64,000 nt of DNA from Octopus vulgaris (taxonomy: Eukaryota): assembly GCA_951406725.2 (NCBI GenBank), contig OX597825.1:13206001-13270000 (forward strand), given 5' to 3'. Under the pieces are notes generated by a model. It saw only the letters and a program-made list of their open reading frames with translations, had not been told where the DNA came from and made no database searches. A program made the translations under genes and the position numbers. How positions within the stretch are numbered: the stretch's first letter is position 1; each line of letters starts with the position of its first letter. Of this stretch, positions 12,460 to 48,685 are shown piece by piece.

Positions 12460-12495
12460 CTTTTACGTTTCGAGCCTACGCTCTTCGACAGAAAA
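12460..12495 (-). ncRNA. Short-stem-III HHR-like motif, core CTGTCGA
   Basis: Minus strand reads tttt-CTGTCGA-a-gagc(gtag)gctc-GAA-acgt-a-aaag, inside a repeat (12365-12540) shared with 37865-38055 and 48043-48685. Confidence 0.55.
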
Positions 12496-14138
12496 GGACA
12501 CAGAAAACAAGGAGAGAAAAAATGTATGTAGTGGCTAAAATACAGATGCAAATATGTACAAATACATATTTTTCATTCTTGCACTTGTCTCAGTCATTTG
12601 GCAGTGGTCATGCTGGAGCACCGCATTTAGTCGAGCAAATCGACCCCAGGACTTATTCTTTGTAAGCCTATCGGTTTCTTTTGCCGAACCGTTACGCTAT
12701 GGGAAGGTAAGCACACAAACATTGGTTGTGAAGCTGGTGGGGGACACATACGCCACAGAAATCGGGAAACTGGGCCCATGAGCCTGGCTAGGCTTGAAAA
12801 AGGGCGCATAATAAATAAAATAAAGACACGACCGCATGCATTTGCACGTACAAACACACATACATAGAGACACATATACATAAAAACAGATAGACACATA
12901 CACATAAAAACATCTACGCACCTAGGCACACACACACACACAGACATACGCATGCAAACACATATACGCACGCATGAGCGTACATATAGAGATACAGACG
13001 CACATACCTAGATACATACATAGACGCTCAGACATCCACACATCCACACACAAATATATGAATAAATGTATGCGCATATATATGACACATACATAGGTAT
13101 GCATATAACAAACACATACATAGACATGCACTCATCTACACACCAACACACGCACGCATAGACATACATACAAAGAAACAGACGGACAAAAATGCATACA
13201 TGCACATATATATATATATATATGTGTGTGTATGTGTGTGTGTGTGTGTGTGTGCGTGTGTGTTTGTGTGTCTGTGTTTGTCCCCCTAGCATTGCTTGAC
13301 AACCGATGCTGGTGTGTTTATGTCTCCGCCACTTAGCGGTTCGGCAAAAGAAACCGATAGAATAAGTACTGGGCTTACAAAAGGATAAGTCCTGGGGTCG
13401 AGTTGCTCGATTAAAGGCGGTACTCCAGCATGGCCGCAGTCAAATGACTGAAACAAGTAAAAGGGTAAAGGGTATATATATATATATATATATATATATA
13501 TATATATATATATATATATATATATATATATATATATATATATATATATATATATATATATATATACATATATACATACACACACACACACACATACACA
13601 CACAAACACGTACATAAACACATTTCCAGACAAATGTACATAGTATGACGGTGAAAAGAAAGCTAAGCCCTTATGGCCCCATAAATTTGATTTTTTTTTC
13701 TTTCCATGGCGTTAAATAATTGACTAAATCGACATTAATACATTCCTGCTTCACTTATTATTTCTGCCCTTAGGGAGACGAAGGTCCCAGTCAACCAGAT
13801 CCCAATTTGAACACAGTACCCAAATGCGCGTAACCAAATCCCACCACATATATGTATTCCAGTAATAGGCTCCTTTCACACGCTCCACTGTCCGATATGT
13901 ATTACACCAAAGATTTGTTCCGGCTCTTTAAGTTCTGTGTTCAAATCCCACCGCGGTTGACTTTGCTCTGCAGCCTTCCAGGTTACATAAAATAAAGTAC
14001 CAGACACCTAAATCCCACCCCCGCCTCAAAATTACTGAACTGTGCCGAAAGAAGTTTATTATTATTATTATTATTATTATTATTATTATTATTATTATTA
14101 TTATTATTATTATTATTATTATTATTATTATTATTATT

Positions 14139-14320
14139 CAGGCGGCGAGCTGGTAGAATCGTCAGCACTCCCGGCGAAATGCATAGCGGTATTTCGTCCG
14201 TCTTTACGTTCTGAGTTCAAATTCCACCGAGGTTGACTTTGCCTTTCATCCTTTCGGGGCCAATACATGAAGTACATGTGATACACTGCAGTCGATATAA
14301 TCGACAGGTGCCCTCCCACA
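14139..14320 (+). mobile_element. SINE family A (diverged)
   Basis: ggcggcgagctggtagaatcg...gagttcaaattcc...gcctttcatcctttcgggg. Confidence 0.75.
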
Positions 14321-14747
14321 AAATTTCTGCGGAGTTTGTATTCAGAAGGTTAAGTCGGAAGAAATACCGCTAAATATTTTACCCGGCGCAAGAACGATTC
14401 TTTAAGCTCATCGCCTCAAGTTCGCCTCAAGCTTCGACTGTGTTTCCATTTCGTTCCATAGTTAAGGTTATCTAAAGCATAACGCACGATCGCAGTTTGT
14501 GAAAAGCAGAATATTACCCGAAATATTTAACACAGAGCACCTCAAAAGACGATGGCCACCAAAATCAGTGGAGCCGCCAGAATCCCTTGATGCGATTTAC
14601 TTATCTTTCTTCTTTCCGGGGTCGATTAAACCCGTATGAAACAAGTATTGGGTGTTGATGTGGCGGGAAGTTCAATTCCTCTCCTTAAATTTATGGCTGT
14701 GTTCAAACAGGATCCCAAATTTATCGCCACCCCCGCCGCCGACGCAT

Positions 14748-15090
14748 TTGTTGTTGTTGTTGTTCTTCTTCTTCTTCTTCTTCTCCGTTCTTCTTTCTTC
14801 TTCTTCTTCTTCTCCTTCTTCTTCTTCTTCTTCTTCTTCTTCTTCGTTCTTCTTCTTCTTCTTCTTCTTATTATTATTATTATTATTATTATTATTATTA
14901 TTATTATTCTCCTTCTTCTTCTTCTTCTTCTTCTTCTTCTTCTTCTTCGTTCTTCTTCTTCTTCTTCGTTCTTCTTCTTCTTCGTTCTTCTTCTTCTCCT
15001 CCTTCTTCTTCTTCTTCTCCTTCTTCTTTTCTTCTTCTTCTTCTTCTTCTTCTTCTTCTTCTTCTTCTTCTCCTTCTTCTTCTTCTTTCT
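14748..15090. repeat. Compound (GTT)/(CTT)/(ATT) trinucleotide microsatellite
   Basis: Direct reading of the sequence. Confidence 0.95.
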
Positions 15091-15469
15091 TTTACGTCTG
15101 TTCTTTAAACGGAGAAAGGCGGAGTCGTTATAGTTTGACGTTAAAAAGAAAAAAAGATCAATGACGAGTAATTTGAACGGAAGTTAAGGTCCAGGTTCTT
15201 ATTTATTTGCTTCTGTTTGAAGAATCGTGAACTGATAAGAAGCGAAACCAAAGGGTGGGGGTGGAGACACCCCCACCCCGCACGAGTGCCTTTATCACGC
15301 TAACTAAAATATCAAATTTCATGGTCAGGATATAATTTGTAAATCCATCAATTCCAACACTCCCATCTTTTGACCTCATCCAGTGTATTAGACCACTATG
15401 TGTGTGTGTGTGTGTGTGTCTGAGTATACGCATATACACATGTATATATATGTATGTGTGAGTATATTC

Positions 15470-45962: not shown

Positions 45963-46380
45963 GCTTGACGAAGTTCAAAAAGTTCAAATATACAAATGTG
46001 TGTGTGTGTGTTTGTTTATTCTTTTATTTGTTTCAGTCATTTGACTGCGGCCATACTGGCCATATGTGTTTGGATGTATGTGTTTGGATGTATATGTGTG
46101 TATGTATATGTGTGTGCATATGTGTATATATGTATAAACAAGGAGTTACAACATCTTTACTTGTGAGATTTTTGCTGCCCTGGTAACTATTTATTTATTT
46201 TTCCGTGTTAATTGTTAACAAGGTAAAATATACTCATCTATTTATATATATATATATATATATATATATATATATATAGATATATATATATATATATGTT
46301 GGCAATGAACATTTGGTGTTGTGTCGCCAAGAAGCTACGTCACCACCAATGTTCCCTGTTATGCAATCATTATTCTAAGT

Positions 46381-46545
46381 CAGTGGTTCCTAAACATTTC
46401 ACTACCAAGGACCCCTTTTATTTAAATGAGTTTTTCCACGGACCCCAGGATATCGAAAGGTTCGTCAGCTTAACATAGTGACAGACACCCAGTACTACCT
46501 CGGCTGCCCACCAAGGATCTGTGGACCACGGGTTCGGAACCACTG
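46381..46545. mobile_element. hAT (Charlie-like) MITE
   Basis: TIRs cagtggttcc/ggaaccactg; imperfect 8-bp TSD ttctaagt/ttctaaac. Confidence 0.8.
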
Positions 46546-47207
46546 TTCTAAACCTTCGCATGTACTGTGATACTGGATTCTAGATTCTAGATTATAGATT
46601 ATAGACAATTCTGACGCGCCAGTTTCTTGTCCAGTCTCTGATTTTGAAGGCTTTGGACATACACCCAATTTGTTACGGTATTACGCTTGCAAGAGCTTCC
46701 TTTAATCAATCTTATAAAGAAATGTTACTAAACTTCGACTTAGTATTAACTTATAATGTAAGGAACTCAGATCGCAAAGATTGCCGAAATACATTTAAGC
46801 ACTTTCCCCGGTGTTCTCACAATATGCTCATCTCATCGATTAATTTTATAATGCAAAGAACTGGAATAAAACTGCAGGGATCTTATATCAAATAATAAAT
46901 TTGCCTCGACGTTTTTTTTTAATCATTAATTGTTATTCGTCTGATAATTTGTGATATTGTGTGATAACAAAAGCGTTATTATTACAACGTGATGGAGATG
47001 ACTTTATCAAGTATAACACTTGGAGTGGCAACATTTATGGTTGAGAAAATTGTGTATGACAAAGTAAGGAGTTTTGCCGTTGCCGTTATCATTGTTGTTG
47101 TGTGTGTTAATAATAATAATGATAATAATAATAATTATACTAATTATAATAATGATAATGATAATGTTAATAATAATAATTATTATTATTATTATCATAA
47201 TGATGAT

Positions 47208-47612
47208 GGTGGCTGTGTTGTAAGTAGTTTGCTTGCGAACCACTTGGTTCCGGGGTCAGTCCCACTGCGTGGCACCTTGGGCAAGTGTCTTCTACTATAG
47301 CCTCGGGTCAACCAAAGCCCTATGAGTGGATTTGGTAGCCGTAAACTGAAAGAAGCCCGTAGTATATATGTATATATGTATATATGTATGTGTGTGTATA
47401 TGTTTGTGTGTCTGTGTTTGTTCCCCACCCTCAACATCGCTTGACAACCGATGCTAGTGTGTTAACGTCCCCGTAACTTAGCTGTTCGGTAAAAGAGACC
47501 GATAGATTAAGTACTATGATTACATGGAATAAGTCCTGAGGTCGATTTGCCCGACTAAAGGCGGTGCTCCAGTATGGCCACAGTGAAAAGTCTGAAACAA
47601 GAAAAAGAGTAA
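47208..47612 (+). mobile_element. SINE family B
   Basis: Family B head and body. Confidence 0.85.
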
Positions 47613-48042
47613 AATAATAATAATAATAATAATAATAATAATAATAATAATAATAATAATAATAATAATAATAATTATAATAATAACAACAACATCAGCA
47701 ACAATCAGTGGCATACGTAATAGCAAAAACACAACAAAAGATAGCCAGAACGAGTAAAATTATAAGCAGACAGAAAAAAATATTTCCATTTCTCTAAGAA
47801 TAAACAAACTTGTGTTGCGTCTATTGCTAATAACACAGCAGACAGGTTTTGTTATTAGCAAACTTAATGGATATTCCAAACCATAATCGCCATACTCACA
47901 CGCGTACGTGAAGGTATACACGTAAACATATAACACACATGCACACATCATCCATGTATGCATGTTTAATATATATATATATATATATATATATATATAT
48001 ATATTTATATATATATATATATATATATATATATATATATAT

Positions 48043-48685
48043 TTGGGGGAAGAATTCACAAAAACACGAAGACAGGTGGTGTAGACAAGAAACAGTTGTA
48101 TTAGTTTAACGCTCGGGAAGTGAAAAAGTCTTTAACGTTTCGAGCCTACACTCTTCCATAGAAAGGAAGACAGAAAGAAATAAGGCGAGAATATATATAT
48201 GGTTCTATATATATATATATATATATATATATATAGTTATATATAAATATATATATATATATATATATATATATATATATATATATATATATATATATAT
48301 ATATATAGGGCAGAATTCACAAAAAAACAAACGACGAAGACAGGTATATAAACAACAAACAGATGTATCAGTTTAACGCTCGGTGAGTGAAAAAGTCATT
48401 AACGTTTCGAGCCGACACTCTTCCACAGAAAGGAACACAGAAAAAAATAAGGCGAGAATATATACATAGTTATATTATATATATATATATATATATATAT
48501 AGGGCAGAATTCACAAAAAAACAAACGACGAAGACAGGTATATAAACAACAAACAGATGTATCAGTTTAACGCTTGGGAAGTGAAAAAGTCATTAACGTT
48601 TCGATCCTACGCTCTTCCCCAGAAAGGAACACAGAGAGAAACAAGGACAGAATATAAAGAATGTGTAGTGGCTAGCGATTTATCA
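48043..48685 (-). repeat. Tandem triplet of ~155 bp units separated by (TA)n, each with an HHR-like motif
   Basis: Units ~48043-48200, 48307-48470, 48501-48685; motifs at 48130-48165 (CTATGGA), 48397-48432 (CTGTGGA) and 48591-48626 (CTGGGGA). Confidence 0.8.

What the first reader, a model, noticed from the sequence alone, without database searches (positions are those of the whole stretch)
12460..48432. HHR-like family with an A6-to-U core (CUGUNGA)
Copies at 12460, 37919, 45927, 48130 and 48397 all have T at canonical position A6 while keeping GAAA, the ACGT palindrome and a mostly paired stem I (tttt/aaag, cttt/aaag, attt/aaat; one mismatch at 48397). The c-g versus a-t change in stem I looks compensatory. 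A6 is normally highly conserved, so an active family of this type would be a notable natural core variant.
Basis: partly seen in the sequence, partly recalled or inferred. Interest (0 to 1): 0.7.

Follow-up and report, generated by a model that had tools for sequence, protein, structure and literature searches.

The report
Penelope hammerhead with self-locking U6 core
These repeats are tail ends of a very abundant, recently spreading jumping gene whose hammerhead self-cutting RNA motif has U in place of a normally fixed core A; the change is predicted to fold the motif shut, so it likely cuts slowly at best, and cutting is untested.

Summary
The five copies are real and all have U at position 6. 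Only three read CUGUNGA; the other two also carry G8A or G5A. A sixth copy was missed, and the 'compensatory' a-t pair is a truncation artefact. They are 5'-truncated 3' ends (pLTRs) of a Neptune/Nematis-type Penelope-like retrotransposon carrying the known minimal type I hammerhead. Genome-wide, 19,291 of 20,274 exact-pattern matches have U6 and 377 have A6. All 37 motifs in 20 near-identical long-ORF elements have U6, so this is no dead relic. Across six subfamilies 0 of 30 hammerhead-constrained positions changed, against 28 of 84 in the 3' flank; only N7 and H17 vary. Related elements keep A6. U6 is predicted to pair with A15.1 and close the core into a hairpin. I found no genomic footprint of cutting, but an A6 sister family shows none either. 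Best reading: a conserved, latent hammerhead that cuts slowly as a dimer or with protein help (0.45); main rival: a non-cutting hairpin (0.33). I found no natural A6U core in print. This scan noted the family before on other DNA.

The parts
12366..12537 (-). 5'-truncated pLTR copy (A7-type flanks) ending in (TA)n; motif 12460-12495, core CUGUCGA, U6 at 12488, predicted cut 12464|12463
37861..38051 (+). 5'-truncated pLTR copy (G7 subfamily); motif 37919-37954, core CUGUGGA, U6 at 37926, predicted cut 37950|37951; otherwise intact
45883..45961 (-). short decayed copy of an old subfamily, truncated inside stem I; motif 45927-45961, core CUGUCAA (U6 at 45955, G8A), stem II broken
48045..48195 (-). 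G7 pLTR copy, third unit of a head-to-tail trio; motif 48130-48165, core CUAUGGA (U6 at 48158, G5A)
48308..48462 (-). G7 pLTR copy, second unit; motif 48397-48432, core CUGUGGA (U6 at 48425), one stem I mismatch
2579..2790 (+). sister-family copy with A6 (core CCAACGA at 2657, stem II GAGC-UCC-GCUC); outgroup, related through its 3' flank
28060..28192 (+). sister-family copy with A6 (core CCGACGA at 28073, U4C); outgroup; bounds approximate

Best explanation
The motif is the minimal type I hammerhead in the terminal repeat of a Penelope-like retrotransposon, whose source lineage has kept U at core position 6 through to its youngest long-ORF copies, and it likely acts as a locked, slow self-cutter: U6 is predicted to pair with A15.1 and shut the lone motif into a hairpin, which would open and cut only when the two terminal-repeat copies dimerise or the element's protein refolds it. 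Shown: PLE context, tandem motifs about 4.5 kb apart in one element, U6 fixed, and constraint on the hammerhead positions. Inferred: A6 as the ancestral state, the closed fold, slow cutting, and uncut RNA as the usual template for insertion.
For: Context: the ORF has RVT_1 above cut-off and a weak C-terminal GIY-YIG match, with a CX2-5CxxC linker. All 37 motifs in 20 of 20 young long-ORF copies have U6, and 17 of 20 carry the motif in both pLTRs. Constraint: 0 of 30 constrained positions differ among six subfamily majority sequences, against 28 of 84 in the 3' flank (Fisher p 5e-5; 27 of 84 and p 1e-4 without G7). The source ORF meanwhile diverged at 58 of 219 fourfold sites (G7 versus young). 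Inserted copies decay equally in motif and flank (36/918 versus 90/2167 in G7), so the motif is no mutational cold spot. Only N7 and H17 vary, the two core positions a hammerhead leaves free, and H17 is A or U in all six majorities. G5A, a standard killing change (recalled), occurs only at decay level: 390 matches spread over all N7 states. Predicted U6-A15.1 pairing probability is 0.41-0.98 in 4 of 4 U6 copies and 0.0 in 2 of 2 A6 copies. Precedent: PLE minimal hammerheads cut weakly as dimers (PMC4209133); the anole PAc hammerhead needs protein to cut and is dispensable for insertion in vitro (PMC11167929); natural A6C cuts at under 0.1 per minute (PMC3088659).
Against: No cleavage data exist. 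In saturation mutagenesis of a type III hammerhead, all single mutants in the CUGA region had low activity, and none was rescued except the C3:G8 swap (PMC9901934). 5' junctions of young copies are flat across the cut site: 21 of 91 fall in -2..+4 against 21.8 expected (by eye), and 1 of 26 sits exactly at +1. No U6-snRNA chimera joins the cut site (2 chance hits, control 2), although an earlier unchecked note reports such joins for other PLE families in this genome. There is no stem covariation inside the U6 lineage, and loop 2 is also invariant (0 of 4), so the constraint may be on plain sequence. The tandem G-A pairs would be kept in a non-cutting hairpin too. The fold is no more stable than shuffles (z 0.31).
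Confidence: 0.45

Rival explanations
1. A6U killed catalysis. The motif is kept as a non-cutting hairpin (stem I, G5-C15.2/U6-A15.1, tandem G-A pairs, stem II) that binds the element's protein or positions reverse transcription, which starts about 110 nt downstream.
For: The closed fold is specific to U6. There is no cut-site footprint. CUGA mutants have low activity (PMC9901934). PAc inserts without hammerhead catalysis (PMC11167929), and Naiads spread without canonical hammerheads (PMC8557442). Loop 2 is invariant.
Against: C3, U16.1 and a non-G H17, which are unpaired in the closed fold, stay as catalysis requires (weak: few positions). N7 varies although U7 would strengthen the hairpin. 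The canonical A6 sister family shows no pile-up either (about 9 of 33 near the cut versus about 8 expected, by eye).
Confidence: 0.33
2. The block is conserved as DNA, as part of the internal promoter in the upstream pLTR. The hammerhead shape is inherited and no longer matters.
For: The block lies about 110 nt before the pLTR end, upstream of the ORF. The run from G8 to U16.1, loop included, is invariant with no covariation. PLE pLTRs hold promoters (PMC6765202, section 11).
Against: The only variable sites are N7 and H17. Stem I arms on both sides are kept and covary with the A6 sister families.
Confidence: 0.1
3. U6 is well tolerated in this minimal context, and the ribozyme cuts about as well as A6 minimal hammerheads.
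For: Long retention in the most abundant minimal-hammerhead family of the random sample (11 of 28 motifs in 600 kb).
Against: PMC9901934, PMC3088659, and the predicted competing helix.
Confidence: 0.07
4. Neutral relic: the motif is functionless and only looks conserved because too little time has passed.
For: No covariation within the lineage, and no footprint of cutting.
Against: 0 of 30 versus 28 of 84, with equal decay rates in motif and flank.
Confidence: 0.05

Closest known systems
[quoted passage not shown]
   Same: Short stem I, extra nucleotide between 9 and 10.1, G10.1-C11.1, loopless palindromic stem III (ACGU), location in both pLTRs, mostly dispersed truncated copies.
   Different: U6 instead of A6. 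Every alignment row I saw in Fig. S3 has A6, the consensus is CUGANGAH, and the core change named in the text is U3-A8. Stem II is short (4 bp).
EN+ Penelope-like elements of Neptune/Nematis type (Craig et al. 2021, PMC8557442; passages read)
   Same: [quoted passage not shown]
   Different: Non-canonical hammerhead core. Neptune versus Nematis was not resolved, as no tree with named references was built.
PAc (Poseidon of Anolis) hammerhead (PMC11167929; passages read)
   Same: PLE hammerhead with no ends found at the cut site in sequence data.
   Different: Canonical core; protein-assisted cleavage was shown; the ORF starts inside the motif, whereas here the motif lies several hundred bases from the ORF.
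Natural A6C hammerhead of phage Bcep176 (Perreault et al. 2011, PMC3088659; section 8 read, supplements term-searched)
   Same: Natural change at position 6, with low but detectable activity.
   Different: A single phage example with C, which cannot pair with A15.1; not a family of tens of thousands of copies.

Membership tests
PLE minimal type I hammerhead | C3 U4 G5 N7 G8 A9 and G12 A13 A14 A15.1 U16.1 H17 | tested here: met
   Invariant in six subfamily majorities except N7 and H17.
PLE minimal type I hammerhead | A6 | tested here: not met
   U in 19,291 of 20,274 pattern matches and in 37 of 37 motifs of young elements.
PLE minimal type I hammerhead | Extra nucleotide after A9, G10.1-C11.1, palindromic 15.2-16.2 | tested here: met
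   A9a, GAGC/GCUC, ACGU.
PLE minimal type I hammerhead | Stems I and II supported by covariation | tested here: inconclusive
   None within the U6 lineage; the outer stem I pair is C-G versus G-C, G-U or A-U in A6 sister families.
PLE minimal type I hammerhead | Located in the pLTRs of a PLE, in tandem | tested here: met
   17 of 20 long-ORF copies have it in both pLTRs.
PLE minimal type I hammerhead | Site-specific self-cleavage | not testable with these tools
   Only contigs were available, no raw reads; genomic footprints absent but uninformative.
EN+ PLE (Neptune/Nematis type) | RT followed by a C-terminal GIY-YIG in one ORF | tested here: met
   RVT_1 31.6 bits (cut-off 29.6); GIY-YIG E 0.007, below its cut-off; homologues carry both.
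EN+ PLE (Neptune/Nematis type) | CX2-5CxxC linker before the GIY-YIG | tested here: met
   CSRPRCRTC in the translation.
EN+ PLE (Neptune/Nematis type) | Partial tandems, fixed 3' end, 5' truncation, (TA)n targets | tested here: met
EN+ PLE (Neptune/Nematis type) | Placement in a named clade by RT phylogeny | not tested
   No named reference sequences were held.
Non-LTR retrozyme | Non-coding tandem units of 170-400 nt with a canonical type I HHR | tested here: not met
   Copies are truncated ends of a coding element. The trio at 48045-48852 is separated by (TA)n and is partly a local duplication.

The most novel reading that the evidence does not exclude
A naturally evolved auto-inhibited hammerhead: one core change (A6U) both weakens the catalytic pocket and sequesters the dimerisation palindrome, making cleavage a switch that only dimerisation or the retrotransposon's own protein releases. 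It has been kept through a long ladder of active subfamilies and, if earlier unchecked notes on shark-like genomes hold, was reached independently in other animals.
Probability: 0.25. Interest if true: 0.75.

Novelty: new variant of a known kind. Interest (0 to 1): 0.52.

Why it matters
What hammerheads do for Penelope-like elements is open: they are conserved, yet cut weakly and can be dispensable in vitro. Here a recently amplifying element with long open frames carries a conserved but core-altered motif next to A6 sister families, which gives a natural paired test of whether cutting or only the fold is selected. If it cuts, A6 is not obligatory, and descriptors that demand CUGA miss about 19,000 or more motifs in this genome alone.

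Tried and rejected
Rfam: no hammerhead among the 150 of 224 window hits listed, and 0 hits on a young pLTR. One full-length copy (L183) starts near the predicted cut site, but the family-wide test was flat. The A6 sister control was also flat, so the test is uninformative. An apparent G5A subfamily (8 of 29 G7 copies) came from my G5A query and is rejected. An apparent A6 subfamily among old copies came from my A6-selected loci: with position 6 free, 79 of 100 listed are U, 18 C and 3 A (by eye). The first constraint test (p 0.67) was invalid because truncation-selected and A6-selected loci entered the majorities; it was redone without them. Sequencing runs: no RNA holder listed on record. Contigs of four runs guessed to be RNA cover the pLTR and the start of the unique region but show no joints or ends. 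Pfam found nothing on three decayed ORF pieces. No RT was linked to the A6 sister families. The closest homologue clusters carry no names. Lunse et al. (RNA Biol, PMC5785218) is not held, so I saw only its citation in a review; it and its supplement may list A6U. File 1 of the PMC4209133 supplement could not be searched.
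Full report
Observation. Read in sense they are stem I (cttt) - CUG U N GA - A - GAGC GUAG GCUC - GAAAC GU H - aaag. Only 3 of 5 keep CUGUNGA: 45927 has G8A and a broken stem II, and 48130 has G5A. A sixth copy at 48591 has G6 and is a local duplicate partner of 48397. Six matches stand against 0 in 100 shuffles. The a-t 'compensation' at 45927 is a 5' junction plus a common G-to-T change. A..T occurs in 3 of 234 copies against 0.74 expected; that count includes this copy, and the loose pattern can also admit A6 sister copies.

Family. The exact pattern TTTCTGxNGAAGAG-N6-CTCGAAACGT gives 19,291 matches for x=T, 377 for A and 606 for C/G, with 0 for the reversed control. 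N7 takes all four bases by subfamily. In 600 kb sampled without regard to the motif, 11 of 28 hammerhead-like motifs were of this type. Copies share a fixed 3' end about 110 nt past the predicted cut, followed by (TA)n, and have ragged 5' ends. Contigs from four public runs under four organism codes show no other letter at 5% or more at position 6, while N7 and H17 vary (absence of a row is not proof).

Context. Long copies continue upstream into RT and GIY-YIG coding sequence. A protein search scored 150 of 9,863 candidates, many with identical scores and open frames up to 1,214 codons. I fetched 20 of those with frames over 1,000 codons. They differ from the first copy (L215) by 1-21 bases in about 1,500, and paired pLTRs are 99.5-100% identical. 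All 37 motifs in them read CUGUUGA; 17 of 20 have two motifs about 4.5 kb apart, and one motif has a private A15.1G. [quoted passage not shown] The motif matches the published PLE min-HHR in every listed feature but A6 (PMC4209133).

Polarity. Sister families related through the 3' flank keep A6 and sit on a long branch apart from nearly all U6 copies. Among 80 metagenome loci with related RTs, a descriptor with position 6 free found 18 motifs in 15 loci, all A6; the control (reversed plus antisense) gave 3. U6 is therefore likely derived. No RT could be tied to the A6 sisters.

Constraint. Differences shared by several copies show a ladder of source elements. Fourfold-site differences from the young element are 33/289, 52/276, 58/219 and 9/23 for successively older groups, against 2.4-10.5% at codon positions 1+2, so the lineage stayed under selection. 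Across six subfamily majority sequences, with old copies picked by their 3' flank only, 0 of 30 constrained positions differ. The flanks differ at 47 of 109 positions overall and 28 of 84 on the 3' side (p 5e-5). G7 copies were partly picked with the motif in the query; without them p is 1e-4. Loci selected on core patterns or truncation were left out of this test. After insertion, motif and flank decay alike. Only N7 and H17 change; loop 2 does not (0 of 4, not significant), and no stem covaries within the lineage. G5A occurs 390 times, about 2% of the U6 count, across all N7 states, which is decay and not a subfamily.

Mechanism. U6 creates a helix that A6 cannot: U4-G16.2, G5-C15.2, U6-A15.1, plus U7-A14 in the youngest subfamily. 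In the isolated motif the predicted probability of the 6-15.1 pair is 0.98 (young), 0.78, 0.61 and 0.41, against 0.0 in two A6 copies. This would bury the ACGU palindrome needed for the dimeric stem III. Published data point to low activity: CUGA-region single mutants are weak (PMC9901934, passages), natural A6C gives under 0.1 per minute (PMC3088659), PLE min-HHRs are weak even as dimers, and the PAc motif needs protein and is not needed for insertion in vitro (PMC11167929, passages). I commit to a latent, slow ribozyme (0.45) over a non-cutting protein-binding hairpin (0.33); sequence alone cannot separate them.

Results against cutting. Of 206 young copies whose 5' junction falls between -16 and +9, 100 were listed. 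I set aside 9 with indels, and 21 of the other 91 fall in -2..+4, against 21.8 for a flat spread (by eye; 30 loci scripted). The canonical A6 sister is equally flat (100 of 142 listed, about 33 true truncations). U6 snRNA copies in this genome are often fused to other repeats (30 of 48 matches inspected), but none to this cut site. I did not verify the positive cases that earlier notes report for other families.

Literature. Searches for hammerhead with A6U, with CUGU-type cores, core variants, octopus with Penelope, shark or Neptune and adenosine 6 returned no listing that describes a natural A6U core. The one paper holding 'A6U' is on twister ribozymes, and I saw only its listing. Term finds in PMC3088659, PMC7229834 and PMC11014351 gave 0 for A6U. 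I also read part 1 of 5 of bioRxiv 10.64898/2026.07.22.740005 and passages plus section 11 part 2 of PMC6765202. Lunse et al. was not available, so novelty in print is provisional.

Earlier notes. The scan has 46 notes holding 'A6U hammerhead' in at least 4 genomes, including this family on other pieces of this genome. My reading was logged before I opened them. They gave the chimera test and the lead on other animals, and they are not evidence.

Verdict: a real, constrained new variant of the known PLE minimal hammerhead; activity untested; interest 0.52.

Noticed in passing
window 40963-41232: Head-to-head inverted pair of another hammerhead-like family with a U3-A8 core (UUGAAAA, palindrome AAUU); this is the palindrome that Rfam scores weakly as MIR8007.
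   Followed up: partly
window 2657 (+) and 28073 (+): A6 sister family with U4C (CCGACGA) as a subfamily-wide state: a second non-canonical core in the same superfamily.
   Followed up: partly
window 33315-33400 and 52485-52570 (+): Two copies of a repeat with CGAAACGT preceded by GAAGTC and no upstream CUGANGA; possibly the rewired hammerhead that earlier notes describe for Naiad elements.
   Followed up: no
one search list; L285-L314: In the oldest subfamily 18 of 100 listed copies have C6, above the roughly 9% T-to-C rate in flanks, without shared diagnostic changes. Unexplained.
   Followed up: partly
L042 (minus strand), L058; G000:C6:14436053: Apparent chimeras joining the 5' half of an A6 sister family to the 3' half of a U6 subfamily within the shared motif; likely template switches.
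   Followed up: no
L375-L404: Many U6 snRNA copies are fused at their 3' end to SINEs or short repeat tails.
   Followed up: partly
window 57516-57627 and 61228-61339 (-): Sub-threshold 5S rRNA Rfam hits fall on copies of an abundant SINE-like repeat; a 184-bp tandem of it lies at 44035-44582.
   Followed up: no
window 58430-58529: Assembly gap of 100 N.
   Followed up: no
L075/L076, L151, L059, L051: Frequent short inverted (head-to-head) pairs of the pLTR around (TA)n, as described for PLE insertions.
   Followed up: no
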